Source of the DNA: a phage
Direction: 5' to 3' (one strand)
Sequence record: PZ379177.1
Length of the DNA: 64,000 nucleotides
Every line of letters begins with the position of its first letter. Positions within the stretch are counted from its first letter, which is position 1. The notes below the pieces were generated by a model. The model worked only from the letters and a program-made list of their open reading frames with translations. It searched no databases and was not told where the DNA came from. Shown piece after piece: positions 41,864 through 63,386 of this stretch. Position numbers and translations under genes: made by a program.

Positions 41864-42511
41864 TTATCCTGTGGCCTGCATATTGCGTACATACTTCTGC
41901 TCTAATGAATAGATGAAGTCGGCGACCGTCAATCCTTTGGTGTGCCACTCATACATTGTGTAGCCTGTATTCAGGAAATAGCCGCGCACTTTATCCATCG
42001 CTTCAGCTTCCTCCATGGAAGCCATCAGCGCGGCGACGTTATCATAAGAAGGCACAAATCCCTTCTTGCGTAGCGCATTGCGCAAATCTTTAGTTCTGAA
42101 TCCAATCTTGCACGGGTCATCACGGCCCGTTGATGATGCAACCTTCGGCAAAGCAAGGAACTCTTTGAGGAACATCGAGATGTTCAGGTCGCCTGCATCA
42201 TCAAGCTTCTGGAGTCGGTTGCGACCGCGCCCCTTGAATTCACTCGCACGGGGGTGAGCGCCAAAACAGTGCGCACCTTCCAATTTAGGGTCGATGATCA
42301 TCAAATCTTTTCCTACGCGCAATTCAACGTAGTAAAGGTATGTCTCATCGACAAGCTTCGTGCGTTTACAGGTGATGGAGTCCTTATCGTAACCAAAACC
42401 ACGCAACACGGTTGAAATCATCCGGTTCATTTCTTCTCCGTGAACGTCACTCTCTTTGTTCAGTTCACCGAGATGTTGAAAGAATTTAGCGATGTTGATT
42501 GCTTTATTCAT
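41864..42511 (-). CDS. Hypothetical early protein
   Basis: 215-aa ORF abutting the helicase gene. Confidence 0.5.
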   Translation of the reverse strand: MNKAINIAKFFQHLGELNKESDVHGEEMNRMISTVLRGFGYDKDSITCKRTKLVDETYLYYVELRVGKDLMIIDPKLEGAHCFGAHPRASEFKGRGRNRLQKLDDAGDLNISMFLKEFLALPKVASSTGRDDPCKIGFRTKDLRNALRKKGFVPSYDNVAALMASMEEAEAMDKVRGYFLNTGYTMYEWHTKGLTVADFIYSLEQKYVRNMQATG

Positions 42512-44181
42512 CAGAATTCATCCTTATCTCTTCCTAAAGAACGTTTGCGCTCAATAACCTTCTTCAAGAATTCAATATCTTCAGGGTCAGACTCGTCGCG
42601 AATAAGATACGCTAAGATAGTCATCAAGTCAGAAATGTATTCCCCTGCTTCATTCTTAATCAGCGGCGTAAAGTATCCACGCTGGTTGCGATAGGTCGCA
42701 GGCTCAAATCCAAGCTTCGACATGTGCGGCGCAAGGGTACGTGAGAAAGGCGACTTGCCGCACTTAGCTCTGAATCCCATAGCGATTGCACCACTGGTGA
42801 TGTGCCAGCGTCCGCTGTGATGTCGGTCATAAGGCGCGGTAATGACGACTTCAACAAGGTCGTTGTCGACCATCTCATCACGGATAACGCCGCGAGCACG
42901 TTCCATTTCATTCTTGCTAAACTCAGTAAGCATGCGAGATGTTTCACCAACAAACGCGTTGTAACCTGCTTCGCCGTGCTTCTCCATCCATGCAGCGCAC
43001 TCAGCCATCAATTGCCAAACGTCTTCTTTCAAAGTGGAAAGATCAGCTTGGAAGTCTTTCGACCAGTTCGGCTGCCCGTCCTTGTCAGCAAGTTGGCCAA
43101 CAAAGATAGGATATACACGACGGTTGCCCGTGTCATCACGCTGCATACCTGCGTATTCGTTGCCGTCCATGATAGCAATCCACTGGCGTGGTTTAACCTG
43201 CGTATCTTCAAATTTGAAGTCCAGGTCATCTTCCGTCTTAGTCAGGAATGCTTTCATGTTTTCGATGTCAGCCTTTTTAAAGCCTGTCATCTCGCCAACG
43301 TTCGCGATAATTGAGCGACCCGTAATAGCTCGCAAGAACGGGTTGAAGTTCTGCGCGGCCAAGTTCAACGGAATCGGTGTTGCGTGGCGGTCGTTCATAA
43401 TAGCTTCGCAAAGTAGCTTACTAAAATAACTCTTCCCTGCGTTCTGGCCGCCGATGAGCGCGATGGAGATTGGCGCTTGACATCCAGGGTTTGTCAGGCG
43501 GTTGTAGAGCGATAGCCAAAAATACACACCGATTTGTCGGTTTAACTCTGTATCGAACGGTCGGAATAGCTCGATAAGGTATTTTTCAATGCGCGCAGTA
43601 CCGTCCCATTCAGGAAGCTTCTTGTAGAAGAAGTCCATCAGGTCGTCGCGCTGATAACGCATGGCCCATTCCTTATAGGATTGAGCGACCTGACGTGAGT
43701 TTGGGTTGGACAGTCCTGCTGCGTCGACAGCGGCAACTATCTCTGTGACTTCCAAAGTACGGTCGGTGAATGTTTCGCCGCGATGGTCGACTAAGCGCCC
43801 ACGAAAAGTATCTTTGTGAGGGAATGGAACAACGCCACTTCCCTTATCAAACAACGCGTCGAAAACCGCATAACGGTTCATGTCACTCGTCCGGTCTGCC
43901 TGTAGAACGAAGTCATCTTTGGTAGGCTTGTAGTGAGGGAACTTGATTACCTGAAGTGAGGCGAGCAAGCGTGCTCTTTCAACCAAGTCTTCTTCACCGT
44001 AGCATTCCATGCGCTCTGCATCTTTCTCAACAGCCTTATGCTGGAGGCTGATTTTAGCTCTGGTGCCTTGCTGCTCTGCCGCTTGCATCTCTTCTGAAAC
44101 ACCAGCGTCTTGAATTTCGTCAAAGATTGCACCAAATTCATCACCTGTATCCTCTGGAAGATTGTCATGTTCAATTGACAT
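42511..44181 (-). CDS. VirE/D5-like P-loop DNA helicase (primase-associated)
   Basis: 556 aa; Walker A IALIGGQNAGKSYF; WDGTARIEKYLIELF region typical of phage VirE-family helicases. Confidence 0.7.
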   Translation of the reverse strand: MSIEHDNLPEDTGDEFGAIFDEIQDAGVSEEMQAAEQQGTRAKISLQHKAVEKDAERMECYGEEDLVERARLLASLQVIKFPHYKPTKDDFVLQADRTSDMNRYAVFDALFDKGSGVVPFPHKDTFRGRLVDHRGETFTDRTLEVTEIVAAVDAAGLSNPNSRQVAQSYKEWAMRYQRDDLMDFFYKKLPEWDGTARIEKYLIELFRPFDTELNRQIGVYFWLSLYNRLTNPGCQAPISIALIGGQNAGKSYFSKLLCEAIMNDRHATPIPLNLAAQNFNPFLRAITGRSIIANVGEMTGFKKADIENMKAFLTKTEDDLDFKFEDTQVKPRQWIAIMDGNEYAGMQRDDTGNRRVYPIFVGQLADKDGQPNWSKDFQADLSTLKEDVWQLMAECAAWMEKHGEAGYNAFVGETSRMLTEFSKNEMERARGVIRDEMVDNDLVEVVITAPYDRHHSGRWHITSGAIAMGFRAKCGKSPFSRTLAPHMSKLGFEPATYRNQRGYFTPLIKNEAGEYISDLMTILAYLIRDESDPEDIEFLKKVIERKRSLGRDKDEF

Positions 44182-48397: not shown

Positions 48398-49243
48398 GTG
48401 AATATGGCCGAAGCAATCAAAGTATTATCTAAAGAAGAAAAACAAGCAGCCGCAGCAGAACGTCGTCGCGTGGCTGAAGAAAAACGCCTGGCTAAAAAGA
48501 AAGAAGCCGAAGAAAAACGCCAGAAGCGTGAGCAGGAAAAACAAGCCAAGCGTGAAGAAGCTGCGCTGAAACGCAAGCAAGCTGCTGATGAGAAGGCTCA
48601 GAAGCGTGCTGAAGAAGCAGCTAAGAAAGCTAAAGAGCGTGCAGAAAAGGCTGCCGCTAAGAAGGCAGAGCGTGAAGCCGCTAAAGCCGCTAAAGAAATT
48701 GAAAAGGCAAAGGCGAAAGAAGAAGCCAAGCGCCTGAAAGCTGAGCAGGCTGCGGCCAAGAAAGCTGAGCGTGATCAAGCCCGTGCTGCAGCGAAGGCCG
48801 AAAAAGAGAAGGCAAAAGAAGAAGCTAAAGCGAAACGCAAGGCAGAGCGTGAAGCTGCTAAGATTGCGGCGAAAGAAGCTGCAGAACAGCAGAAAGAACA
48901 GCGTAAGAAAGAAGCTGAAGAACGTCGCAAAGCCATCGCAGAACGTAAGGCTGCTAAAAAGGCAAACGGTCAGCGTCGTGCAAAAGCCACTCACTTCATC
49001 TACACTGGCAATGGCCTGAGCCAGCCGCAAGAGCATTCCACCCGTGGACGCGTTCTGGCGGCGATCAAAGAAGGCGAAGTTGGCGTGGCGCAGTCTATCG
49101 ATGAGCTGGGCGAAAAAGTTAAAGATCAACTGTTTGGCGCTTCCGTTCGCTCCTACCTGAGCAAGCTGGAAGAGATGGGCCACATCGAGTTTGTCGATGT
49201 TGAATCCAATGACGATGCCGAAGACGGTGATCAAGCGGAATAA
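48398..49243 (+). CDS. Lys/Ala/Glu-rich charged helical protein with globular C-terminal domain
   Basis: 281 aa; about 190 aa of KAE low-complexity (AEEKRQKREQEKQAKREEAALKRKQAADEKAQKRAEEAAKKAKERAEKAAAKK...) followed by a roughly 80-aa non-repetitive tail. Confidence 0.6.
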   Translation: MNMAEAIKVLSKEEKQAAAAERRRVAEEKRLAKKKEAEEKRQKREQEKQAKREEAALKRKQAADEKAQKRAEEAAKKAKERAEKAAAKKAEREAAKAAKEIEKAKAKEEAKRLKAEQAAAKKAERDQARAAAKAEKEKAKEEAKAKRKAEREAAKIAAKEAAEQQKEQRKKEAEERRKAIAERKAAKKANGQRRAKATHFIYTGNGLSQPQEHSTRGRVLAAIKEGEVGVAQSIDELGEKVKDQLFGASVRSYLSKLEEMGHIEFVDVESNDDAEDGDQAE

Positions 49244-49377: not shown

Positions 49378-50373
49378 ATGAACATGAAACAACCTGTAAT
49401 GATTATCGGCGGCGGCTTGGCAGGACTTATTACCGCGTGTCACTTCCCGAACTCTATTGTGTACGAAGCAGGGGAGCGAGCGCCACAGCACAAGGCGCTG
49501 CTACGCTTTCGCGGCGAAGAAGTAAGCCGTATTACCGGAATACCTTTTAAGGCCGTGACAGTTGACAAGGCTGTGTATTTTCGCGGTAACTACTACCACG
49601 ACCATTGCCCAATTAACCTTGCAAATATGTATTCCATGAAGGTCACCAATCAGTTTGGCAGCCGTTCAATCATGAAGCTTAAGACTGCAACGCGTTATAT
49701 TGCGCCTGATGACTTTTATGATCAGCTTGTCGACAAACTGGGTGACCGCATATTCTTTAATACTCCGGTTGATACTCTTTGCGGCTATAGCGAGACGCCA
49801 ATCATCAACACGTCGCCGCTGCCAGTAATGATGAAGCTTGCTGGGATTGATCAAAAGCTTGATTTCTCATTTGATAAAGCAAACATTCGCGTTTACCGCT
49901 TTAAGATTAAACGTAAGTGTGATTTGTATCAGACAATTTACTTCCCTGACTACTCCGTCAGAACTTACCGCGCATCAATTACTGGTGACACACTTATCAT
50001 TGAAACCATTCCTTTGGTCAGCGTGAGTGAAGCTGCAGTTGAAGCCGCTGGCGGCATCACTCGTTACCGTGACATGAAGCTGCGCGCAGAAGTCGACGAA
50101 GTGTTGACAGCCTTTGGCCTCTCATGGAGTGACATCGCTCTTGAAGAAGTTGAAAAGGTCGACCAGAAATATGGCAAGATTGTCGACATTCCGAAAGACT
50201 TGCGACACGCCCTACTCCTGCAGCTGACCATGGATTTAAACGTGTTTAGTGTCGGTCGATTTGCTACCTGGCGCAACATTTTGCTTGATGACGTCGCTCA
50301 TGACCTTGTTGAAGTTGAAAAACTCATCAAAGCAAATAACTATCAAAAATTTGCTTATATTGCTAATAAATAA
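49378..50373 (+). CDS. FAD/NAD(P)-binding Rossmann-fold oxidoreductase-like protein
   Basis: 331 aa; N-terminal dinucleotide-binding motif VMIIGGGLAGLITA (GxGxxG). Confidence 0.55.
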   Translation: MNMKQPVMIIGGGLAGLITACHFPNSIVYEAGERAPQHKALLRFRGEEVSRITGIPFKAVTVDKAVYFRGNYYHDHCPINLANMYSMKVTNQFGSRSIMKLKTATRYIAPDDFYDQLVDKLGDRIFFNTPVDTLCGYSETPIINTSPLPVMMKLAGIDQKLDFSFDKANIRVYRFKIKRKCDLYQTIYFPDYSVRTYRASITGDTLIIETIPLVSVSEAAVEAAGGITRYRDMKLRAEVDEVLTAFGLSWSDIALEEVEKVDQKYGKIVDIPKDLRHALLLQLTMDLNVFSVGRFATWRNILLDDVAHDLVEVEKLIKANNYQKFAYIANK

Positions 50374-50438: not shown

Positions 50439-50885
50439 ATGAAACGAATCACTGGAATCGCGCTTGCCGCGACTGCTATTCTCGGCACCATGTATATGGA
50501 AGCGACTGAAGCCGCTGTCCGTACTTCCGATTCAATCGCTGTTTACGATTGTGAAGCGATGGACGGTAAGACCGCAGCAACGACTGGTGCAAAGATTACC
50601 ACTTACATCGGTGTGAATGAGCAAGAAGGTCTGAATATTCAGATTCAGGGATTCACGGGAAAAGGTGTCAACCGGACTCCGTGGATGCAACGTTTCACTT
50701 TCGTCCAGCCTCGTTCAACTGGCGGCTTTATCAACCTGATTGGTGAAAACCGTTCTGGTGCAGAAATCTTTACATCAATGAGTTCTAATAATGAACCAAA
50801 GAAAAGTTTTCAGTTGCTTTATAACGCACAATTCGTTTATCATTGCGTTTTCTCTGGTGATCAGCAACTGGTAAATTACCGTTAA
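50439..50885 (+). CDS. Secreted protein
   Basis: 148 aa; signal-peptide-like N-terminus MKRITGIALAATAILGTMYMEATEA. Confidence 0.5.
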   Translation: MKRITGIALAATAILGTMYMEATEAAVRTSDSIAVYDCEAMDGKTAATTGAKITTYIGVNEQEGLNIQIQGFTGKGVNRTPWMQRFTFVQPRSTGGFINLIGENRSGAEIFTSMSSNNEPKKSFQLLYNAQFVYHCVFSGDQQLVNYR

Positions 50886-53459: not shown

Positions 53460-54011
53460 ATGCCACATTTTAAAATTGAACAAATCGCCCTGTCAATTCC
53501 AGGTGCTCAGCGCGCACAGAATTTCCTGGCTAAAATCGGCCTGACAGAATGGTTCCATGATCACGTTGTTGCTACTGGTCGCGTATTTGAAGCTGATGTC
53601 TTTAAGGGTCAGCGCGGCGATTGCACCAACGAAGCTGACTTGCGCTTCAACTATCAGGCTGGCAACGGCACCGATGGCGGCGCTGGTAAGCCTCTTGAGC
53701 TTGAAATTCTTGACTATACAAAAGGTTGCAACTGGATTCACGAAAACATCGAATACATCGATGCGCACGACAATCAGGTTAGCCATCTTGGTATGCACGT
53801 GACTGCCGCTGAACTTGCTGAATGGCGCAAGTTCTTTAAAGAAGAAGGCATTCAGGTTGCGCAGGAAGTCGTAACCGACTCTCACACCAACCCAAATATT
53901 GCTGGTCAGCGTCGTTACAACTATGTGATCTTTGATACGCGTGAGATCATCGGCGTTGATTTGAAGTTTATCGTGCGCTTGAATCAAGACGGTACTCCGT
54001 ACACTGTATAA
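53460..54011 (+). CDS. Hypothetical enzyme, possibly glyoxalase/VOC-like fold
   Basis: 183 aa; His/Glu-containing beta-alpha segments (LELEILDY, SHLGMHV). Assignment weak. Confidence 0.4.
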   Translation: MPHFKIEQIALSIPGAQRAQNFLAKIGLTEWFHDHVVATGRVFEADVFKGQRGDCTNEADLRFNYQAGNGTDGGAGKPLELEILDYTKGCNWIHENIEYIDAHDNQVSHLGMHVTAAELAEWRKFFKEEGIQVAQEVVTDSHTNPNIAGQRRYNYVIFDTREIIGVDLKFIVRLNQDGTPYTV

Positions 54012-54065: not shown

Positions 54066-54608
54066 GTGTTATTTCTCCCTTATGACTTCGAAACAACCGG
54101 ATTGACCGTGCACCCGAAAGCGCCGCTTGGGATGCAGCCGCGCCCTATTGAATTTGCAGGTCTGTTGACAGACGGCAAAGAGATTATTGAAACGTTTGAA
54201 TTCATAATTAATCCTGAAATCGTGATTGAAGAAATTATCACAAAGATTACCGGATTAACAAATGAAGACCTTGAGTGCAATCCACCATTCATCAATTTTG
54301 TCCCGCAGCTAAAAGAAATCTTCAAGAAGACGGCTGCCACTATCGCGCACAACCATGCGTTCGATAAAAACATTCTTGATTATGCACTACAGCGCGAAGG
54401 ACTTACGCTTGATGATGTTAATTTTCCAGAAATAAACATTTGTACAGTTGAGCAAACCTTGCCTATTTTTGGCCGAAGAGTTAAGCTTCAAGAGCTGTAT
54501 GAATTATATTTCGGAAAATATGAACAGAAACACCGTGCATTAGACGACGTAATATTACTGCACAAAGTCTGCCAACAAATTGGCGTATATGACATCTGGA
54601 GTAAATAA
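54066..54608 (+). CDS. DnaQ-like 3'-5' exonuclease (DEDDh family)
   Basis: 180 aa; Exo I motif FLPYDFETTGL, Exo II-like HNHAFDKNIL, Exo III HRALDDVILL. GTG start with AGGAGG RBS; stop overlaps the DnaE start. Confidence 0.75.
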   Translation: MLFLPYDFETTGLTVHPKAPLGMQPRPIEFAGLLTDGKEIIETFEFIINPEIVIEEIITKITGLTNEDLECNPPFINFVPQLKEIFKKTAATIAHNHAFDKNILDYALQREGLTLDDVNFPEINICTVEQTLPIFGRRVKLQELYELYFGKYEQKHRALDDVILLHKVCQQIGVYDIWSK

Positions 54609-57505
54609 TGTTTCCACAATTGAGAGTTCGCAGCGGTTACACGTTCAAAGAAGTTTATGGACGGCATCCTGAAATTATAGCACGGCTCAAAGAGTTGGGC
54701 TGCGAAGTCGCGGCATTAGTTGATAACAACACATGGGGTCACGTTCGCTGGGAAAAGGAATGCCAGAAAAATGATATTAAGCCTATGTTTGGAATGGAGA
54801 TTCCAATCATCGACCCTGATGCGGACCCGAAAAAGGGATTCAAACCGAAGGCTTGGATATTGGCCCTTGACTTAAAATCTTTTTACAACGCTACAACACT
54901 TGCAACGCAGCGTGGTGGTCTTACCCGTGCAGAGTTCGGGGCGCTTGATGGCGTCGTTAAATTCTGTGGCGGTGCCGTGGAACTGCTGCGGCCAGAGGAC
55001 TACGACTATATAGACGTCAACCCATCGTCGTTCCTTTTGGCAAAGCGCCAGGCGTTGGCTCATCGTAGCAGTGGAAGGCCGCTGGTTTTAACCGGATACA
55101 ATCACATGCCTTCTCCTGAGCACGTTGACTTCGCTTATGCGTGGGAAGTGCGCGACACGGTTAAGCCGCATTGCATCGTTGACGTTGAAGACTTGCGCAA
55201 ACAGCTTAAAGGCATCTTGACTGAAGATGAGCTTGATCAGGCAACGGCCAATGCCGTGGACATCGCGAACGGCATAGTCGGACTTGACTTGAAATTGCGT
55301 AAGGCACCGATTATTCACCTTGCTGGTGACATGGTAAAGCTTGCTCGCGAGGGGATGGAGTACCGTCTAAAAGCAGGTCACATCAAAGAATGGACTCAGG
55401 AATATGAGGACCGCTTCAACGAAGAAATTCACCAGATTCAGCTGAAAGATTTCGACTCATACTTTCTGGTGGTAGCGGACCTTGTACGATTCGCAAAAAC
55501 AAAAATGCTAGTCGGTCCTGCGCGCGGCTCATCGGCTGGTTCACTTGTTTGCTATTGCCTCGGCATCACGGAAGTGGACCCAATACCGTATAAACTGCTT
55601 TTTGCCCGATTCATCGACGTAAGCCGCGCCGACCTTCCTGACATCGACATCGACTTTGAAGATACCAAACGCTATATGGTGTTTGATTATCTTAAAGAGA
55701 AATACGGCGAAATGAACGTTGCAAAGCTTGGCAACATTAACACGCTTAAGGCCAACTCAGTAATGGCGCAGGTTGGTAAGAAGTTCAACATTGGATACCA
55801 CGAAACGGCCAACATTAAAAACGCACTGCTTGAATACTCATCCGGTGACGCCCGTTATGGCCACGGCCTGGAGGATACCTTTGCCACAACAACCACGGGT
55901 CAAGAGTTTGTGGCCAAATATCCTGATGCCGCGCGTTGCATGGGCGACCTTGAGATTCACCCGTCTCACACAGGTGTTCACGCAGCGGGAATCATTGTGT
56001 GTAATGACCCAATCTCTGATTATTGTACTGTAACTGCAGAAGGGATTGCACAAATTGATAAGCCTGACAGCGAATACCTTAACCTTTTGAAGCTTGATGC
56101 GCTGGGCCTTCGTACTCTCGGCATTATTTCTGATACAGGCGTTATTGATGCTGAAACGCTCTACGGCATCAAGCTTGATGATCAAAGCGTCCTTGACATT
56201 CTTAACGAAAACAAGATGTCAGGCATCTTCCAGTTTGAAGGCGACGCTGTACGCTCAGTAACAAACTTTGTGCACGTCGATAACTTTAACAAAATCGACA
56301 ACCTGACGGCTTTGGGTCGACCTGGCCCGTTGTCATCCGGTATGGCCCAGAAATACATTGAACGCGCAGCAGGGCGTGCGCCGATTGAATACGACGTGCC
56401 GCAGCTTGAGCCGTACTTAAAAGAGACTTACGGCGTGTTCCTTTACCAAGAGCAAATCATGGCCGTGGTTAAAGAGATTGGTTCATTTGACTGGGCGAAA
56501 ACATCCGCTGTGCGTAAGGCAATGTCAGGCCGTAAGGGTGAGGAATACTTTAACAAGCTTGGCGAAGACTTTGTTGCAGGCGCAATAAATAACGGCGTAC
56601 CGGAAGCGGATGCAAGAAAGCTTTGGCAGGCGATGGCTACGTTCGGGTCATGGGGCTTTAACAAGTCGCACTCCGTGTCATACGCGGTCGTGACCTACTG
56701 GACCTTGTGGCTTAAACGACACTACCCGTTGGAATTTGCCGCTGCTTGCTTACGCGCTGCTAAGGACGAAGACCAGACGATTGCGATATTACGTGAACTT
56801 GCGAAGGAAGGCGTGGATTATGTGCCAATCGACCCTGATCACTCTTCAATGAACTGGACCATCGCTAACGGAAAGCTAATCGGCGGCATCATGAACGCGA
56901 AAGGGTACGGAATGGTGAAGGCGATGAAGTATATCGAAGCACGTGAAGCCGGAACCTTAACGCAAAAGCAAAAGGACGCATTGGCCAATGCTGAAGTAAA
57001 ATACGGCGACCTTACAGAGATGCACACAAAGTTCGGCTGGGCGTATAATGACCCGTATCTGATTGGTGTGACGTCCGGCGCTTCAATACGCCAGATGAAG
57101 GAAGTCGGTGATGACGAGCGCGCAATAGTAATCGGCAAGTTGACAAAGAAAGTGCTTGCGGACGAGAACGAAGCAACACGCATCCGTAAACGACTTGAGC
57201 GCGGCATCTATACAAAGCACGGCAAGCTTAAAAAGGGTCTTCAAGTTGATGGCCGCTACGCAGAGTTTGACCAGTACGGGAACAAGCTTGAGACTCAGTT
57301 CATCGACCTTATGTGCAAAGACGACTCGACCGACTCGCCAATGCGCTTCAGGATTCGCCCAGAGAAGTTCCAGAAGTACGGGAAGTACATTGCTGAAAAC
57401 GTCGGGAACGGCGCATTCTTCCTGATGAAAGGTCGCAAGCTTGAAGGCATTGACATGTTCATCGTTGACGTGATCAAACAGGTGTATCCAGATGGCAACA
57501 AATAA
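54608..57505 (+). CDS. DNA polymerase III alpha-type (DnaE-like) replicative polymerase
   Basis: 965 aa; DnaE-like segments GPARGSSAGSLVCYCLGITEVDP and FNKSHSVSYAVVTYWTLWLKRHYPLEFAAACL. Confidence 0.85.
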   Translation: MFPQLRVRSGYTFKEVYGRHPEIIARLKELGCEVAALVDNNTWGHVRWEKECQKNDIKPMFGMEIPIIDPDADPKKGFKPKAWILALDLKSFYNATTLATQRGGLTRAEFGALDGVVKFCGGAVELLRPEDYDYIDVNPSSFLLAKRQALAHRSSGRPLVLTGYNHMPSPEHVDFAYAWEVRDTVKPHCIVDVEDLRKQLKGILTEDELDQATANAVDIANGIVGLDLKLRKAPIIHLAGDMVKLAREGMEYRLKAGHIKEWTQEYEDRFNEEIHQIQLKDFDSYFLVVADLVRFAKTKMLVGPARGSSAGSLVCYCLGITEVDPIPYKLLFARFIDVSRADLPDIDIDFEDTKRYMVFDYLKEKYGEMNVAKLGNINTLKANSVMAQVGKKFNIGYHETANIKNALLEYSSGDARYGHGLEDTFATTTTGQEFVAKYPDAARCMGDLEIHPSHTGVHAAGIIVCNDPISDYCTVTAEGIAQIDKPDSEYLNLLKLDALGLRTLGIISDTGVIDAETLYGIKLDDQSVLDILNENKMSGIFQFEGDAVRSVTNFVHVDNFNKIDNLTALGRPGPLSSGMAQKYIERAAGRAPIEYDVPQLEPYLKETYGVFLYQEQIMAVVKEIGSFDWAKTSAVRKAMSGRKGEEYFNKLGEDFVAGAINNGVPEADARKLWQAMATFGSWGFNKSHSVSYAVVTYWTLWLKRHYPLEFAAACLRAAKDEDQTIAILRELAKEGVDYVPIDPDHSSMNWTIANGKLIGGIMNAKGYGMVKAMKYIEAREAGTLTQKQKDALANAEVKYGDLTEMHTKFGWAYNDPYLIGVTSGASIRQMKEVGDDERAIVIGKLTKKVLADENEATRIRKRLERGIYTKHGKLKKGLQVDGRYAEFDQYGNKLETQFIDLMCKDDSTDSPMRFRIRPEKFQKYGKYIAENVGNGAFFLMKGRKLEGIDMFIVDVIKQVYPDGNK

Positions 57506-57914
57506 CCGTGAGCAGAAATACATATTCGTGCCTTTGAAGAAGCATTCAGAATCGGTATTGAAGCTTCAACGAATCGAGTCGATGACTGGTGATGGCGTGC
57601 CGGACGTAATCGGCACCAACCGGAAAGGGCGCGGCTTTTGGCTTGAAATGAAGTTCTTTGAATCGTGGCCTGCAAGGGCCACCACTGCACCTTTCAGAAA
57701 TGCATTTGAGAAAGGCCAATGCAGCTTTCTTTCTTCGTGGAATGATTGGAAATACCCATCATTTGTTCTGCTTAAGGTTGATTCTGAGAAGATGTTTTAT
57801 TTAGTCCACCCTTCTATTGAATTAAAGCGTTATAATATTGCAGACGTTCAACGTGAGATAATCGTGAAGGGAACTATTCATCACATCATCAAGTATTTAG
57901 AGGAATTGTCATGA
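57492..57914 (+). CDS. VRR-NUC domain nuclease
   Basis: 140 aa; PD-(D/E)xK-type motif GDGVPDVIGTNRKGRGFWLEMKF. Immediately upstream of and overlapping the SNF2 helicase gene. Confidence 0.65.
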   Translation: MATNNREQKYIFVPLKKHSESVLKLQRIESMTGDGVPDVIGTNRKGRGFWLEMKFFESWPARATTAPFRNAFEKGQCSFLSSWNDWKYPSFVLLKVDSEKMFYLVHPSIELKRYNIADVQREIIVKGTIHHIIKYLEELS

Positions 57915-59434
57915 AAACACAAGGAATGCGCCACCAATTATTGGCGCTTGATAAAGCAGGCCGCAGAAAATACTTTGCTTATTTTATGGAGCAGGGTCTT
58001 GGCAAAACCTGGACTGCTTTGGCAGAGTTTGAAAAGCACTTCACTGCTGGCGCGTTCGATGCCATGGTCGTCATCGCTCCAAACGGTGTCCACTCCAACT
58101 GGATTCGTCGTGAAGCACCAGAACACCTTTCCATCAAGTGGATTGGGCACTACTGGCGCGGCAACGACAAGATGAAGACTAAAAAGGGCAAGGCGCTTTG
58201 GGAGAAGATGTTTGCTGATCACTACCCTGAAGGCGAAGTGCCTGCGCGCATCTTCTCATTCAACATCGATACCGTCAACACACCAGTAGGTTATCAACAC
58301 ATCGAGTCGGTCTTGAAGAAATACCGCTGCCTGATGATCATTGATGAATCGACTCGCATCAAAAATAACACAGCAAAACGCTCCATCAAGGTCGTGGAGT
58401 TGGGTCGGCTGGCAAAGGCCCGTCGAATCCTTTCTGGCACGCCGTTGCCGCGCTCGCCTGCGGATATTTACATGCAATATCACTTCCTTGAAGCAGGCTT
58501 GCTCGGCACCAAATCTTTCCGCGCCTTCAACTCTGAATTCACTGTGCTACTTGAAGCGCACGACCCAGAAATGCAAGCCATCCTCAAGAAAATCGGCGGC
58601 AATGGCTATGGGATTCCGCAAGTGCCGCGCAAAGACCAGTTTGGCCGACCGATGTACAAAAACCTTGACAAGCTTATCCGGCTGATGGAACCGCACTATT
58701 TTCGTGCGACAAAAGCGGAATACTTGCCTGACCTTCCAGAGAAGGTGTATAAGTTTATCGACTTCGAGCTGTCGCCTAAACAACGCGATGTCTACGATGA
58801 ACTCAAGAATGAGTACAACTATTTGATGGAATACAAGGGCGAAGAAGAAAACGTCAAGTTTGAGATGATCGCATCTCGCACTAAGATGAAGCAGGTGACA
58901 TCAGGCTTTGTTAAGGTGTATGATGAGATGGTCTACATGGAAGACAACCCACGATTCACAGCCTTTAAGGATTATGTGGAAGGGGTGCTGGAAGACGACC
59001 CAGAGCGCAAATTCATTGTTTGGGCCATCTTTAAGGAAGAGATGAACCAGATTAAGGACTGGCTTGAGTCTGAAGGCGTGGTCACTGGTGTGTACAACGG
59101 TGAAACATCAAAAGAGCAGCGCGAGTTCTTGATTGATGACTTCCAGAAAAACACAGTCGAGAACGGTGGAACGCAAGTGTTGGTGTGTCACGCAGCTGCG
59201 GCAGGCATCGGAATCACGCTTACCGCCGCCGACTTGGCAATCTATTATTCTTGCAACTATGACAACGAGTTGCGAAAGCAATCCGAAGACCGAAATCACC
59301 GCATCGGCACCAAATCAAGCGTGTTGTATGTTGATTTTATTGGCGTTGATACCATCGACGAAGAAATTCAGCGTTCACTGAGCATGAAATCTATGCTTGC
59401 TGATCACATCCTCGACGGCAAAAAGATGAATTAA
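57911..59434 (+). CDS. SNF2-family helicase
   Basis: 507 aa; motifs MEQGLGKTWT, LMIIDESTRIKN, LSGTPLPRSPADIY and C-terminal helicase motif QVLVCHAAAAGIGITLT. Confidence 0.85.
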   Translation: MKTQGMRHQLLALDKAGRRKYFAYFMEQGLGKTWTALAEFEKHFTAGAFDAMVVIAPNGVHSNWIRREAPEHLSIKWIGHYWRGNDKMKTKKGKALWEKMFADHYPEGEVPARIFSFNIDTVNTPVGYQHIESVLKKYRCLMIIDESTRIKNNTAKRSIKVVELGRLAKARRILSGTPLPRSPADIYMQYHFLEAGLLGTKSFRAFNSEFTVLLEAHDPEMQAILKKIGGNGYGIPQVPRKDQFGRPMYKNLDKLIRLMEPHYFRATKAEYLPDLPEKVYKFIDFELSPKQRDVYDELKNEYNYLMEYKGEEENVKFEMIASRTKMKQVTSGFVKVYDEMVYMEDNPRFTAFKDYVEGVLEDDPERKFIVWAIFKEEMNQIKDWLESEGVVTGVYNGETSKEQREFLIDDFQKNTVENGGTQVLVCHAAAAGIGITLTAADLAIYYSCNYDNELRKQSEDRNHRIGTKSSVLYVDFIGVDTIDEEIQRSLSMKSMLADHILDGKKMN

Positions 59435-59508: not shown

Positions 59509-59772
59509 ATGGTACGCATCCTTGAACGTTACAAAAATGAAGCTACTGGCGCAATCGCTTTCAAACGTCTTTTGGTCAAAGAAATTGACGGGATGTTCCG
59601 CGTTGTTAAAGAGTTTGATTATGGCAACGGTGCTGGGGTGAATACCGTTATTATGCCTGGCATCAAGGCGTATAAAACCTTGAAAGGCGCTGAGAAGGCT
59701 TTGGCGGCTTGGAAGCCTGAACGTTATCAAATGACCCGTGTTGAAGGGCTAATGCAAGAAGGTAAAATATGA
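59509..59772 (+). CDS. Hypothetical protein
   Basis: 87-aa ORF. Confidence 0.5.
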   Translation: MVRILERYKNEATGAIAFKRLLVKEIDGMFRVVKEFDYGNGAGVNTVIMPGIKAYKTLKGAEKALAAWKPERYQMTRVEGLMQEGKI

Positions 59773-60326
59773 GCAATATTAATTGGGAAGATGATTTGCC
59801 GCAGGTCGCTCCTGAGAGCATTCAAGAGCGCCTTGCGCGCTTAGTATCTGAACTGGCAGAACGCCAAGAAGCTTTGACAGAGCTTGAAGATGAAGCTGAT
59901 ATGCAAAAGCAGCGAATCAGTGAAATCAAAACTGTTCTGCTTCCTGGCGTTATGGATGAGCTTGGCGTGTCCGAAATCAAGCTTGAGGACAAGACCAAAA
60001 TCAAGGTCGAGTCCAAGGTGAATGCTTCAATCAAGAAAGAAAACGAATTAAAAGTTTTCGATTGGCTTGTCAACAACGGTTACGGCGGCTTGATCAAGTC
60101 CAGCGTCACGGCTGAGTTCGGTCGCGAAGAAATCGAACAGGCGCAAGAGATTGTTGCCGCGCTGCGTGAAGATGGTGTTGAAGTCACATTGAAACAAGGC
60201 GTTCATTCTGCTACACTGAAGTCATTTGTAAAAGAACAGCTGGAAGCAGGCAATCCAGTTAGTGAAGATATTAGCGTTTTTGAATACAAAGAAGCTAAAA
60301 TAACCTTGCCTAAAAGCAAAAAGTAA
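59769..60326 (+). CDS. Hypothetical coiled-coil protein
   Basis: 185-aa ORF; acidic coiled-coil N-terminus. Confidence 0.5.
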   Translation: MSNINWEDDLPQVAPESIQERLARLVSELAERQEALTELEDEADMQKQRISEIKTVLLPGVMDELGVSEIKLEDKTKIKVESKVNASIKKENELKVFDWLVNNGYGGLIKSSVTAEFGREEIEQAQEIVAALREDGVEVTLKQGVHSATLKSFVKEQLEAGNPVSEDISVFEYKEAKITLPKSKK

Positions 60327-60385
60327 TTTAACCTTTATCTTGAAATCAGGTTGCCACGAAACTTGATACTATAGGAAAATATCAA

Positions 60386-61246
60386 ATGTCTAAGAAAGAA
60401 ACTACCGAAGTTGCAGTGAAAAACACCCAGATGTCCGCTATGGCTGATTTTGTCGACATGACCGATTTTGGCGCTGGTTTTGAAGGTGCCGATGCCGATG
60501 CATATGCCATTCCTTTTATCGTCGTGCTGCAGAAGATGTCTCCTATGGTCGACGAAGATGATCCAAAACACGTTCCTGGCGCAAAAGCTGGCATGCTTTA
60601 CAACACCGTTACTGGTGAGTTGTATGACGGCAAGAAAGGCGTGCAGATCATTCCTTGCGCATTCAAACGTACCTTCATTCTTTGGGGCGGTCGCGAGTCC
60701 GACGATAAAGGCTTTAAAGGTGAATTTACCAAAGAGCACGTTGATGCAGAAGTAGCGGCAGGCCGCGCTGTTGAGATCAACGGTAAAGTATTTGTGCCGG
60801 ACGAAAACGGCAAGGTGCACGAGAAGAAGTCTCCTTACTACGCAGATACACGTAACCACTTCGTAATTCTGTTGAACGAAGAAACGGGTGAATTTGGTAG
60901 CGCAATGCTGTCTTTGACTTCTTCCATGATCAAGCCGTCTCGCATGCTGATGACCGCTCTGCAGCAGAAGAAAGTTCAGACTCCGCAAGGTCTGAAAACG
61001 CCGCCGACCTTTATGAACATCGTTCGCATGGGTACTGCATCCCAGTCCAAAGACGGCAACACCTGGTCCGTTCTTAAGTTTGAGCTGGAAGGTCTGGTGC
61101 AGGACAAAGGTCTGTACGAAGTCGCCAAGGCATTCCACAACGACGTAGTTGGCGGCAACGTTAACATCGACCGCAGCAAGCAAGAAGAAGCAAGTGGCGC
61201 TGCTGGCCCTGTCAATGAAACTCCGACCGACGCAGAAGAGTTTTAA
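60386..61246 (+). CDS. Putative ssDNA-binding/annealing protein with acidic C-terminal tail
   Basis: 286 aa; ends ...NETPTDAEEF, an acidic tail with terminal Phe as in SSB-type proteins; sits in the replication module. Confidence 0.45.
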   Translation: MSKKETTEVAVKNTQMSAMADFVDMTDFGAGFEGADADAYAIPFIVVLQKMSPMVDEDDPKHVPGAKAGMLYNTVTGELYDGKKGVQIIPCAFKRTFILWGGRESDDKGFKGEFTKEHVDAEVAAGRAVEINGKVFVPDENGKVHEKKSPYYADTRNHFVILLNEETGEFGSAMLSLTSSMIKPSRMLMTALQQKKVQTPQGLKTPPTFMNIVRMGTASQSKDGNTWSVLKFELEGLVQDKGLYEVAKAFHNDVVGGNVNIDRSKQEEASGAAGPVNETPTDAEEF

Positions 61247-61303
61247 TCGACAATCAAATCAACAAGGCTGCCGATTGGCGGCCTTTTATTTATCTGGTGC
61301 ATC

Positions 61304-61822
61304 ATGATAGAAAGAATTGTACCGCTCCTGAAGATTCTGGCCCTTGTTGGCGCATTTGCCGCTGGATCATACGTTGAAGACCTGCAGCAAACCAACGCAT
61401 CACTGGCCAAGGATAATCAATATCTGACATCGCTTAATGAGCGTAAGGACAAGATAAATGCACTCGAAGAGCAAATTGCATCTTTACAGGTTGAATCGGC
61501 ATCGGCATATGAGAAGGGTCGCCAGGAAGCGCAACTGGTTGCTGATGACACTATTGCTAGTTACAAGTCTGGGAATATCAAGCTGCGCGAGCAACTCAGC
61601 TGCTCCCGTGAGTTACTCAGGAGTATGCCCGACTCTGCGACCACTGGACGCCTCTCTATCCCAGAAGGAAACTGTGGACTATCAGAAGAAGATGTCAGAT
61701 TTCTTGTTCAGTTCGCCGCAGAAACAAACCGATTAAAAGAGAAGGTTAATAGCTTGATTGATACTTATAATCAGGCTAAAATAAAAATCGATCAATTCAA
61801 TGCATCAAAGGAAAATAAATGA
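61304..61822 (+). CDS. Putative i-spanin (Rz-like)
   Basis: 172 aa; N-terminal transmembrane helix (IVPLLKILALVGAFAAGSYV) followed by coiled-coil; a lipoprotein ORF is embedded in the +1 frame. Confidence 0.5.
   Translation: MIERIVPLLKILALVGAFAAGSYVEDLQQTNASLAKDNQYLTSLNERKDKINALEEQIASLQVESASAYEKGRQEAQLVADDTIASYKSGNIKLREQLSCSRELLRSMPDSATTGRLSIPEGNCGLSEEDVRFLVQFAAETNRLKEKVNSLIDTYNQAKIKIDQFNASKENK
61509..61736 (+). CDS. Putative o-spanin (Rz1-like lipoprotein) embedded in the i-spanin gene
   Basis: ATG at 61509; product MRRVARKRNWLLMTLLLVTSLGISSCASNSAAPVSYSGVCPTLRPLD... with a lipobox-like ISSC and a Pro-containing mature region. Lies wholly inside 61304-61822 in another frame. Confidence 0.45.
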   Translation: MRRVARKRNWLLMTLLLVTSLGISSCASNSAAPVSYSGVCPTLRPLDASLSQKETVDYQKKMSDFLFSSPQKQTD

Positions 61823-62412
61823 AACAGATTTATGCAAACATTCGCCAGTGGGCTTCTGACCGTAACATCATCCAAGGTTGCGACCTTAAGGACCAATACC
61901 CGAAGCTTATCAGCGAGTTTGGGGAGTTAACCGACCACGTTGATCAACTCCATGACCTTGTGTTCTTTGACCCTGAAATCGGATATACAGAGCAGGCCAT
62001 TTGTGATTTGCAAGCCGCAATCAAGGACGACATCGGTGATTGCCTTGTTGTGTTAACTATTCTTGCCGCGCAAAATGGTGCAAAAATCGAAGACATCAAC
62101 GGCGGCGGTTGCGCTGACAAAGGCGCTCACCCTCATTCCTTTATCCTTCGCTTGGCGAAGACTCTCGGACGGCTTGGTGACGCCATTGCTAAAAATCAAA
62201 GCATGGATATTGATGTCACTATCATGGCCGCAGTCGATTATCTTTCCGGCGTAGCGCATGATTATGGACTTCGACTGTCTGATTGCGCTCAAGCCGCCTA
62301 TGAAGACATCAAGGACCGTAAAGGTGTGATGTACAACGGAACGTTTATCAAATCGACTGATCAGGCTTATGCCTATGCGCTGGAACAAGTGATGAATAAG
62401 GAGTTTGAGTGA
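61819..62412 (+). CDS. MazG-like nucleotide pyrophosphohydrolase
   Basis: 197 aa; EExGE-like LISEFGELTDHV and DDIGDCLVVLTILAAQNGAKIEDI. Confidence 0.6.
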   Translation: MKQIYANIRQWASDRNIIQGCDLKDQYPKLISEFGELTDHVDQLHDLVFFDPEIGYTEQAICDLQAAIKDDIGDCLVVLTILAAQNGAKIEDINGGGCADKGAHPHSFILRLAKTLGRLGDAIAKNQSMDIDVTIMAAVDYLSGVAHDYGLRLSDCAQAAYEDIKDRKGVMYNGTFIKSTDQAYAYALEQVMNKEFE

Positions 62413-63386
62413 TGGCAGGAGAAATCAAAGCATTAAAACCAATGAAAGGTTGCCAGCGTAAACAAATCATCGAGCGCGGCGAAGATGTGCCGCTGCCTTG
62501 CGGATTATCCTTCAAGGTCGATGGAATACGCGCGATGGCGTATGACAACTTGCCAATGGGCACATCCGGCATGGCACTGCGCAACATTCAAATCAAAAAA
62601 GAGTTCCTATTCTTGGGTGAATTGATTCACGGACTTGATGGAGAGCTAATTGACGGTAATCCGAATGACAAGAACGTCATGCAACAGGCCTATACTGCAT
62701 GCATGAACACTGATGCAATCACTAACTTTACATGGTGGGTGTTTGATGACTTCAGCGACCCTGATTTGCCTTTTGAAAAGCGTTATGCAAACTATCGCGC
62801 TAGAGTTGCTGAAGTCAATCAGCACCTCATCAACCATGGTCGACGCCCATTCCTTCGCGCTCTCGAATATCGAAACATCGAAAATATGGAACAGTACGCG
62901 GCGATGCAAATCGAAGCAGACCAACTTGGCTATGAAGGCTTGTATGGCAAGTCTTGGACGGGCAAATACAAGCATGGCCGCGCGACGCCAAAGTCACGTG
63001 ATGTGTGGAAGGACAAGCCGTGGACCGATGAGGAAGGACTGATCATAGACTTCGTTGAGATGATGGAGAACAACAACGAAGCATTCATTGATGAGTTGGG
63101 TCGCACTAAGCGTTCGAAAGAGGCTGAAGGCTTAGTTGCAAAAGGATACCTTGGATCATTTGTGGTTGTCAATCCAAAATATGTTGATGAGAAAGGTGAA
63201 ATGATTCCTTTCCGCGTCTCCGCTGGTTCAATGCCTATGGCAGAGAGAAAAATGCTTTGGGAGAATCGCGAGAATTATCGCAACAAGTATCTGACATATA
63301 AATTCTTCAACTTTGGCATCGTTGACGTGCCGCGCTCTGCCTTGTATAAATGCTTCCGTGATATTACCGATATGGAGTATTTTTAA
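62409..63386 (+). CDS. ATP-dependent DNA (or RNA) ligase
   Basis: 325 aa; nucleotidyltransferase motif I LSFKVDGIRAM (KxDGxR) and motif EGLVAKG. Confidence 0.7.
   Translation: MMAGEIKALKPMKGCQRKQIIERGEDVPLPCGLSFKVDGIRAMAYDNLPMGTSGMALRNIQIKKEFLFLGELIHGLDGELIDGNPNDKNVMQQAYTACMNTDAITNFTWWVFDDFSDPDLPFEKRYANYRARVAEVNQHLINHGRRPFLRALEYRNIENMEQYAAMQIEADQLGYEGLYGKSWTGKYKHGRATPKSRDVWKDKPWTDEEGLIIDFVEMMENNNEAFIDELGRTKRSKEAEGLVAKGYLGSFVVVNPKYVDEKGEMIPFRVSAGSMPMAERKMLWENRENYRNKYLTYKFFNFGIVDVPRSALYKCFRDITDMEYF

What the first reader, a model, noticed from the sequence alone, without database searches (positions are those of the whole stretch)
60386..61246. SSB-like protein ending in an acidic tail with terminal phenylalanine
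The 286-aa protein ends ...TDAEEF. Established knowledge: an acidic C-terminal tail ending in an aromatic residue mediates polymerase and helicase interactions in phage SSBs such as T7 gp2.5. Inference: this may be the phage single-strand-binding or annealing protein despite no recognised OB-fold motif by eye.
Basis: inference. Interest (0 to 1): 0.35.

Follow-up and report, generated by a model that had tools for sequence, protein, structure and literature searches.

The report
Unrecognised phage single-strand DNA-binding protein
This "hypothetical" gene of an E. coli Wifcevirus phage most likely encodes the phage's single-stranded-DNA-binding protein, and it belongs to a very large phage-only family that nobody has annotated, although no binding experiment exists yet.

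Summary
Window 60386..61246 (+) encodes a 286-aa protein ending ...TDAEEF. The tail is not chance: among 143 divergent full-length relatives, 76% end in Phe and 92% in a hydrophobic residue, after a variable acidic linker. Some tails read ...DDIPF, like bacterial SSB.

The protein matches Pfam PF23977 (Pam3 gp34-like, function unknown). It is called "hypothetical" in essentially all 511 phage genomes that carry it.

The gene lies in the replication operon (exonuclease, DnaE-like polymerase, SNF2/UvsW-like helicase, gp33-like partner), and no other recognisable SSB is encoded.

Caveats:
- No sequence-level homology to any SSB family.
- No zinc site.
- Relatives in Vibrio and Acinetobacter phages coexist with a separate small SSB, so a specialised recombination or annealing role remains possible.

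This is a new sequence family of a known kind, of moderate interest.

The parts
60386..61246 (+). CDS of the 286-aa gp34-like protein (PF23977), the putative phage SSB; the end coordinate includes the stop codon
   Evidence: ORF and translation. Pfam PF23977 at E 4e-86, 289 bits against a cutoff of 27. phrog_2402, function unknown, at E 4e-105.
60373..60376 (+). Shine-Dalgarno-like AGGA, 9 nt upstream of the ATG
   Evidence: Read directly from the sequence. An RBS is annotated at the equivalent place in phage Mansfield.
60386..60505 (+). N-terminal region (residues 1-40), predicted disordered and net charge -5. It contains the start of a strongly conserved peptide, DF-G-x-GFEG-x-D (residues 27-36). 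Its inferred role is self-association or partner binding.
   Evidence: pLDDT below 50 for residues 1-14 and 32-40. G31 is invariant; D27, G29, F32, E33, G34 and D36 are nearly invariant. G31 stays invariant and E33 is at least 90% conserved in the 126-sequence alignment. The role is inferred by analogy with the gp32 N-terminus and the TG1 RDF N-terminal peptide.
60506..61165 (+). Ordered core (residues 41-260): an elaborated OB-type beta-barrel with inserted elements and flanking helices. It has conserved W100, D154-T155-R156-x-H158, K183, S185, T205-P206-P207 and W227, and no zinc site.
61166..61219 (+). Flexible linker (residues 261-278), variable in sequence and length across the family and rich in Ala, Glu, Gly and Asp
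   Evidence: pLDDT of 40-50 and no regular structure after residue 270. The alignment is variable here.
61220..61243 (+). Acidic C-terminal tip TPTDAEEF with the invariant terminal Phe; the inferred docking peptide for partner proteins
   Evidence: Sequence. F286 is invariant and A283 nearly invariant.
61264..61295 (+). Intrinsic-terminator-like hairpin (AAGGCTGCC-GATT-GGCGGCCTT) plus T-rich tail, directly downstream of the gene
   Evidence: Terminator scan. It is annotated as a terminator in phage Mansfield, and YuA gp05 likewise ends at an annotated terminator.
59769..60326 (+). Conserved upstream partner gene: the gp33-like protein (PF23984/DUF7307), with a long N-terminal helix plus a small alpha/beta domain; function unknown
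57911..59434 (+). SNF2/UvsW-like SF2 helicase, syntenic with the gp33/gp34 pair in every lineage examined
   Evidence: Pfam SNF2-rel_dom plus Helicase_C. The Mansfield annotation notes an HHpred match to T4 UvsW. The same order is seen in YuA, BcepF1, H2, DMU1 and USP_1.
54608..57505 (+). DnaE-like (Pol III alpha) replicative polymerase; a candidate docking partner of the acidic tail (inferred only)
   Evidence: Annotated as DNA polymerase III alpha in related phages. PF07733 is found in the BcepF1 orthologue. The partnership is inferred from the T7 precedent (PMC12339929).
42511..44181 (-). Primase/helicase-like protein that also ends in acidic residues plus Phe (...RDKDEF). This suggests a shared docking site, as with T7 gp4 and gp2.5 (inferred).
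   Evidence: phrog_4630 at E 4e-255. The tail is ...RDKDEF here and ...ILGEDF in the Pbunavirus orthologue, which is 44% identical.

Best explanation
The gene encodes a non-canonical phage single-stranded-DNA-binding protein built in three parts.

1. An ordered, elaborated OB-fold core (residues ~41-260). It binds ssDNA through conserved aromatic and basic residues (W100, R156, H158, K183, W227).
2. A flexible linker of variable sequence.
3. An acidic tip ending in an invariant Phe.

By analogy with T7 gp2.5, T4 gp32 and bacterial SSB, the tip is proposed to do two things. It docks into basic or hydrophobic pockets of replisome partners: the phage DnaE-like polymerase, the UvsW-like helicase, the primase/helicase, and possibly host SSB-interacting proteins. 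When it has no partner, it folds back on the DNA-binding cleft. A conserved N-terminal peptide (DFGxGFEG) probably mediates self-association or another partner contact.

In Wifcevirus and PB1-like phages, which encode their own replisome but no recognisable SSB, this protein most likely serves as the replication and recombination SSB. It may also promote strand annealing, as gp2.5 does.

Shown here: the ORF, family membership, tail conservation, predicted fold and its structural neighbours, and synteny. Inferred: ssDNA binding, the partners of the tail, cooperativity and annealing.
For: - Viral structure library. BFVD Foldseek hits include proteins named SSB and RDF.
- Tail. Terminal Phe is invariant in close relatives. 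It is present in 76% of 143 divergent representatives, and 92% end in a hydrophobic residue, with a net acidic tail. 16 of 143 carry a bacterial SSB-tip-like [DE][DE]x[IVLA][PG]F. Control families show 0-6% terminal F.
- Context. The gene sits in the replication operon, after the exonuclease, DnaE, a nuclease-like gene, the SNF2 helicase and the gp33-like gene, and before MazG and the ligase. This synteny holds across distant phages.
- No other SSB. None is detectable by PHROG annotation of a complete Wifcevirus genome, by PHROG or Pfam scans of module genes, or by tblastn with five SSBs.
- Second tail. The primase/helicase carries a similar conserved acidic, Phe-ended tail. This parallels T7 gp4 and gp2.5, whose tails bind the same polymerase (PMC12339929).
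Against: - No sequence or profile similarity to any SSB family. hhalign against the gp3 family gives probability of 1% or less even at Neff ~5. The PDB profile search returned only noise. A Pfam scan of 126 members hits only PF23977.
- The zinc site of gp3 and gp32 is absent.
- The core is not basic: net charge is 0 here and averages -1.8 in the family.
- In VP2-like Vibrio phages and Acinetobacter phage DMU1, a gp34-like gene coexists with a separate small SSB that carries a perfect host-type tail (...DFDDDIPF...DLDDDLPF). The family's conserved role may therefore not be that of the general replicative SSB.
- Several orphan proteins in the same module cannot be excluded as SSBs.
- There are no experimental data for any family member.
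Confidence: 0.65

Rival explanations
1. The protein is a specialised ssDNA-binding recombination, annealing or fork-restart factor, not the general replicative SSB. It would act as part of a conserved cassette of SNF2/UvsW-like helicase, gp33-like protein and gp34-like protein. Its acidic tail would couple it to the helicase or gp33-like protein, and general ssDNA coating would be left to another phage or host SSB.
For: - The constant companions of the family are the SNF2 helicase and the gp33-like protein, whatever the polymerase type. The cassette occurs with DnaE in Wifcevirus, PB1-like phages and BcepF1, and with PolA in VP2-like phages and DMU1.
- In VP2-like and DMU1 phages a separate small SSB with a host-type tail sits beside the polymerase.
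- The helicase is UvsW-like according to the Mansfield annotation.
- No RecA/UvsX-type or RecT/Erf-type recombinase is annotated in Wifcevirus, so an annealing activity would have to come from somewhere.
Against: - The small second SSB is absent from the PB1-like, YuA-like and Wifcevirus groups, which make up most carriers. In those phages nothing else fills the SSB role.
- OB-fold SSBs such as gp2.5 combine both roles, so the two readings are not exclusive.
- The gp33-like fold gave no functional clue.
Confidence: 0.22
2. The protein is not primarily a DNA binder. Its OB-like barrel would be a protein-binding scaffold, and the SSB-like tail a decoy. The decoy would hijack or titrate host SSB-interacting proteins (chi, PriA, RecQ, ExoI and others) or defence sensors.
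For: - A subset of family tails is nearly identical to the bacterial SSB tip...DDIPF...DEEIPF...DFDDDVGF.
- The core is not positively charged.
- There is no sequence homology to DNA-binding families.
Against: - Virtually all structural neighbours are nucleic-acid-binding OB folds.
- The conserved aromatic and basic residues and the replication-operon position are typical of SSBs.
- In Wifcevirus the tail (…DAEEF) is not host-like, yet it is conserved. The phage's own primase/helicase has a similar tail, which points to a phage-internal partner.
Confidence: 0.08
3. The protein is a virion structural protein or a holin, as a few database records name it.
For: One record says 'putative structural protein' (Pseudomonas phage Nello). 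One cluster is named 'putative holin' (phiLCL12). The spanin genes lie just downstream.
Against: - There is no transmembrane-like segment: the maximum 19-aa hydropathy is 1.14.
- The predicted fold is a soluble OB-type domain.
- The gene lies in the replication operon and is separated from the spanins by a terminator.
- All other records say 'hypothetical'.
Confidence: 0.01

Closest known systems
PhiC31 gp3 / TG1 gp25 family (Pfam PF18897 Gp3-like): actinophage SSBs that moonlight as recombination directionality factors
   Different: There is no detectable sequence or profile similarity. The gp3 family has an invariant HHC...CxC zinc site, which is absent here. The gp3-family interaction peptide is N-terminal, whereas here a conserved acidic, Phe-ended tip is C-terminal. 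Wifcevirus is virulent and no integrase is annotated, so an RDF role does not apply.
T7 gp2.5 (OB-fold SSB with an acidic C-terminal tail ending in Phe)
   Same: Both combine an OB core with a disordered acidic tail ending in Phe. In T7 the tail contacts a basic patch on the polymerase, and the helicase-primase gp4 carries a similar tail (DTDF) that binds the same polymerase (PMC12339929). Here both the gp34-like protein and the primase/helicase end in [DE][DE]F.
T4/RB69 gp32
   Different: The structural score is weak, there is no zinc finger, and there is no sequence similarity. The gp32 C-terminal domain is longer and does not end in a conserved Phe (own knowledge).
Bacterial SSB (E. coli-type, PF00436)
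   Same: Both have a core, an intrinsically disordered linker and an acidic tip. 16 of 143 family representatives carry tips such as ...DDIPF that are virtually identical to the bacterial tip.
   Different: The core is ~220 aa rather than ~110 aa and has no sequence similarity. Oligomeric state is unknown. In this window the tip is ...DAEEF rather than ...DDDIPF.

Membership tests
Pfam PF23977 (Pam3 gp34-like) / PHROG 2402 | Profile HMM match above the curated threshold over the full domain | tested here: met
   289.1 bits against a cutoff of 27, covering residues 15-259 of the protein and positions 3-234 of the 235-position model. phrog_2402 at E 3.6e-105.
OB-fold SSB with acidic tail (functional kind, not one homologous family) | OB-type beta-barrel core | tested here: met
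OB-fold SSB with acidic tail (functional kind, not one homologous family) | Disordered linker plus acidic C-terminal tip ending in an aromatic or hydrophobic residue, conserved in the family | tested here: met
   pLDDT is below 50 for residues 266-286. F286 is invariant. 76% of divergent representatives end in F and 92% in a hydrophobic residue, with a net acidic tail, against 0-6% terminal F in control families.
OB-fold SSB with acidic tail (functional kind, not one homologous family) | Preferential, sequence-independent binding to ssDNA | not testable with these tools
   This needs EMSA or anisotropy. No experimental data on any family member were found.
OB-fold SSB with acidic tail (functional kind, not one homologous family) | Gene located among replication genes, with no redundant SSB in the genome | tested here: met
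   The replication operon context is shown. No SSB is annotated among the 111 CDS of Bas101, and there are no tblastn hits. Orphan proteins remain unassigned, and other lineages do carry a second SSB.
Gp3-like (PF18897) SSB/RDF family | Sequence or profile match to the family | tested here: not met
   Only PF23977 matches. hhalign probability is 0.2-1.1%.
Gp3-like (PF18897) SSB/RDF family | Shared three-dimensional fold | tested here: met
Gp3-like (PF18897) SSB/RDF family | Zinc-binding His/Cys cluster (invariant H115 H116 C117 ... C135 C137 in gp3) | tested here: not met
   The gp34-like family has no conserved Cys/His cluster.
Gp3-like (PF18897) SSB/RDF family | Cognate large serine integrase in the genome | tested here: not met
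   No integrase is annotated in the complete Wifcevirus genome.
T4 gp32 family | Sequence match, zinc site and fold | tested here: not met
T7 gp2.5 family | Sequence or fold match to gp2.5 | tested here: not met
Bacterial SSB (PF00436) | SSB OB-domain profile match | tested here: not met
   There is no match. tblastn of E. coli SSB against the window gives only E > 3.

The most novel reading that the evidence does not exclude
The gp33-like and gp34-like pair, together with the UvsW-like SNF2 helicase, forms a previously unrecognised and very widespread phage recombination or fork-restart module. In it, an OB-fold protein of a new sequence family acts as an annealase or mediator rather than a plain SSB. 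In many lineages its C-terminal tip mimics the host SSB tail, which would plug the module into the host's SSB interactome. This would explain why it coexists with a dedicated small SSB in PolA-type, PurZ-encoding phages.
Probability: 0.2. Interest if true: 0.65.

Novelty: new variant of a known kind. Interest (0 to 1): 0.45.

Why it matters
PF23977 is a large phage-only family: 4,780 cluster representatives, and 511 sequenced phages including about 360 PB1-like Pseudomonas phages, a group used for personalised therapy (PMC11990801). Every record annotates it as hypothetical.

Assigning it as an SSB would fill the missing SSB slot in the self-encoded DnaE-type replisome of Wifcevirus and Pbunavirus phages. 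It would also provide a handle, the acidic Phe-ended tip, for mapping replisome contacts. Phage SSBs are known triggers of several bacterial defence systems (own knowledge), so the assignment could matter there too.

The result also links this family structurally to the gp3/TG1 RDF proteins. That extends a zinc-less version of the gp32-like OB architecture to Gram-negative phages. It is a useful annotation and a testable mechanism, but not a conceptual surprise.

Tried and rejected
1. Sequence homology to known SSBs. phmmer and a profile search against the PDB gave nothing or noise. hhalign against PhiC31 gp3 alone and against a 30- or 120-sequence gp3 alignment, with shallow and deep query profiles, gave probability of 1.1% or less. 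A Pfam scan of 126 divergent members at E up to 1 hit only PF23977.
2. N4 SSB (gp45, 265 aa) as a possible relative, a lead from memory. There is no similarity, so it was rejected.
4. The 87-aa ORF at 59509..59772 as a divergent Pam3 gp32-like protein. No similarity to the YuA or BcepF1 gp32-like proteins and no Pfam hit, so it was rejected.
5. The ligase tail (...DMEYF) as a third Phe-ended tail. It is not conserved in Pbunavirus, so it is coincidence.
6. A zinc-binding subfamily. There is no coherent Cys/His cluster.
7. Plasmid homologues: none.
8. The afdb50 fold library was unavailable.
9. Literature searches for PF23977, DUF7307, Pam3 gp34, or an SSB in Pbunavirus or Wifcevirus found nothing relevant.
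10. The 'holin' and 'structural protein' labels were rejected.

Full report
**Observation**

Window 60386..61246 (+) is an ATG-started ORF of 286 codons whose product ends ...GPVNETPTDAEEF. It has an AGGA ribosome-binding site 9 nt upstream. A GC-rich hairpin with a T-run lies at 61264..61295 and is annotated as a terminator in the near-identical phage Mansfield.

**Source**

The window is about 96% identical to Wifcevirus myoviruses of E. coli and Shigella: ECML-117, WFH, Mansfield and the BASEL phages Bas98-101. These are distant relatives of the PB1-like Pbunavirus phages of Pseudomonas (PMC11990801).

**Family**

- The protein matches Pfam PF23977, "Pam3 phage gp34-like protein" (E 4e-86), and PHROG 2402. 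Neither has a known function.
- tblastn finds it in 511 phage records, including 364 Pseudomonas phages, YuA-like siphoviruses, and Bordetella, Vibrio, Acinetobacter, Burkholderia and Xanthomonas phages. Apart from records with no annotation under the match and one "phage protein", every listed record calls it "hypothetical protein". One calls it "putative structural protein", and one protein cluster is named "putative holin".
- An exhaustive profile search finds 4,780 cluster representatives at E up to 1e-3.
- There are no plasmid homologues.
- No paper mentions the family.

**Is the tail more than chance?**

Yes.

- In 50 relatives at 50-79% identity, the terminal Phe is invariant. It follows a variable linker within a [DE]-A-[DE]-x-F motif.
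- In 143 full-length representatives of 50%-identity clusters, 76% end in Phe, 82% in an aromatic residue and 92% in a hydrophobic residue. Their last ten residues average 3.0 acidic and 0.65 basic.
- Sixteen carry tips such as ...DDIPF, ...DEEIPF or ...DFDDDVGF. These are essentially the bacterial SSB tip.
- Control families show 6% terminal Phe (gp3 family) and 0% (gp33-like family).
- Of 88 ORFs in this window, only this one combines four acidic and no basic residues in its last ten positions with a terminal aromatic.

**Fold**

AlphaFold2, run with the 50-sequence alignment, gives pLDDT 81.7 and pTM 0.75. Residues 41-260 form a confident beta-rich core. The N-terminal ~40 residues are partly disordered, and residues 266-286 form a disordered tail.

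Foldseek against viral models finds many uncharacterised phage proteins. It also finds entries named SSB (e.g. Streptomyces phage BRock) and RDF (Microbacterium phage Armstrong).

**Limits of the fold evidence**

- The relationship is structural only. Profile-profile comparisons with the gp3 family give probabilities of 1.1% or less, even with a query profile of Neff ~5.
- PDB sequence and profile searches give noise.
- Scanning 126 divergent members against Pfam at E up to 1 hits only PF23977.
- The invariant His/Cys zinc site of gp3 has no counterpart.
- The core is not basic.
- A lead from memory, N4 SSB, showed no similarity.

**Context**

The gene closes a replication operon. In order:

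| Coordinates | Gene |
|---|---|
| 54066..54608 | DnaQ-like exonuclease |
| 54608..57505 | DnaE-like polymerase |
| 57492..57914 | small nuclease-like protein |
| 57911..59434 | SNF2/UvsW-like helicase |
| 59509..59772 | 87-aa orphan |
| 59769..60326 | gp33-like protein (PF23984) |
| 60386..61246 | gp34-like protein, followed by the terminator |
| 61304..61822 | spanins |
| 61819..62412 | MazG |
| 62409..63386 | ligase |

Elsewhere the phage encodes a Dda-like helicase and two primase-like proteins. No SSB is annotated among the 111 CDS of a complete Wifcevirus genome. tblastn with E. coli SSB, two small phage SSBs, gp3 and N4 SSB finds nothing in the window. Several orphan proteins in the module remain unassigned, so another cryptic SSB cannot be excluded.

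**Synteny and a counterpoint**

The trio of SNF2 helicase, gp33-like and gp34-like genes is conserved in BcepF1, YuA (gp02, gp04, gp05), Pbunavirus USP_1, Vibrio phage H2 and Acinetobacter phage DMU1. A Pam3 gp32-like gene is inserted between the helicase and the gp33-like gene in YuA and BcepF1. It is not present here.

In the PolA-type, PurZ-encoding phages H2 and DMU1, the gp34-like gene coexists with a separate small SSB (PHROG 7364/18154). That SSB's tail is a perfect host-type tip...PPMDFDDDIPF or ...DLDDDLPF. The gp34-like proteins there keep acidic tails ending ...DFPDEM and ...NGGEF.

That small SSB is essentially restricted to VP2-like Vibrio phages, a few enterobacterial phages and GJ1-like coliphages. 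It is absent from the PB1-, YuA- and Wifcevirus-type carriers.

So the family's conserved role may be tied to the helicase cassette, in recombination, annealing or fork restart. In Wifcevirus and PB1-like phages it is nonetheless the only SSB candidate. The gp33-like model, a long helix plus a small alpha/beta domain, gave no informative structural neighbours.

**Mechanism proposed**

The OB core would bind ssDNA. The N-terminal DFGxGFEG peptide would mediate cooperativity or a partner contact. The acidic Phe-ended tip would dock on replisome partners and compete with ssDNA for the cleft.

This follows T7 gp2.5, whose acidic tail contacts a basic patch on the polymerase. The tail of the T7 gp4 helicase-primase (DTDF) binds the same polymerase (PMC12339929).

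A parallel exists here. The Wifcevirus primase/helicase-like protein ends ...RDKDEF and its Pbunavirus orthologue ends ...ILGEDF. The ligase's ...DMEYF is not conserved and is discounted.

All of these mechanistic steps are inferred.

**Verdict**

- The protein fails the membership tests for the gp3, gp32, gp2.5 and bacterial SSB families at sequence level, and it lacks the zinc site. I therefore file it as a new sequence family (PF23977) of a known functional kind: an OB-fold SSB with an acidic, aromatic-ended tail.
- Confidence that it is an ssDNA-binding, SSB-type protein is about 0.65. A specialised recombination or annealing role is the main rival, at about 0.22.
- Interest is moderate (0.45). 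This is a useful annotation for a very large, therapy-relevant phage group and a clearly testable mechanism, but not a conceptual surprise.

Noticed in passing
window 42511..44181 (-): The 556-aa primase/helicase-like protein (phrog_4630) also ends in acidic residues plus Phe (...SLGRDKDEF). Its Pbunavirus orthologue, 44% identical, ends ...AKILGEDF. This parallels T7, where the gp4 and gp2.5 tails dock on the same polymerase, and it suggests a shared docking site in this replisome.
   Followed up: partly
window 62409..63386 (+): The ATP-dependent DNA ligase ends ...RDITDMEYF, which looks like a third acidic, Phe-ended tail. The Pbunavirus ligase ends ...GWGGSH, so the resemblance is probably coincidence.
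   Followed up: yes
L008 7744..8220 (Vibrio phage H2 SGB-2014) and L009 11648..11950 (Acinetobacter phage DMU1): These are very small phage SSBs (158 and 100 aa; PHROG 7364/18154, no Pfam match). Their tails, ...NEPPMDFDDDIPF and ...PPADLDDDLPF, copy the bacterial SSB tip almost exactly. They sit beside PolA and an adenylosuccinate-synthetase-like (PurZ-type) gene, in phages that also carry the gp33/gp34 cassette.
   Followed up: partly
window 57492..57914 (+): This 140-aa gene overlaps the end of the DnaE gene. PHROG annotations label it 'DNA helicase' (phrog_2165), but it is far too small for a helicase. It has a weak match to a Holliday-junction-resolvase PHROG (E 1e-3), so it is probably a small nuclease. 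It is conserved between DnaE and the SNF2 helicase in BcepF1 and Pbunavirus.
   Followed up: no
window 61304..61822 (+), with embedded 61458..61736 (+): An i-spanin gene with an embedded o-spanin gene sits inside the replication gene block, between the gp34-like gene and MazG. It is far from the endolysin, which in Mansfield and Bas101 lies beyond the ligase on the other strand.
   Followed up: no
window 48398..49243, 49378..50373, 50439..50885, 53460..54011 (+): Four mid-sized genes inside the replication and nucleotide-metabolism block have no Pfam match at all. Two fall in unknown-function PHROGs (4765, 4828). They are unassigned parts of this replisome, and in principle they could hide another DNA-binding protein.
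   Followed up: partly
window 59769..60326 (+): The gp33-like protein (DUF7307) has an invariant W99 and a nearly invariant FGGLIK motif (residues 105-110), an invariant H146 and T149/L150/F153, a basic C-terminus (...LPKSKK), and a 48-residue N-terminal helix. It always lies directly upstream of the gp34-like gene, so it is a likely physical partner. Its fold has no informative match.
   Followed up: partly
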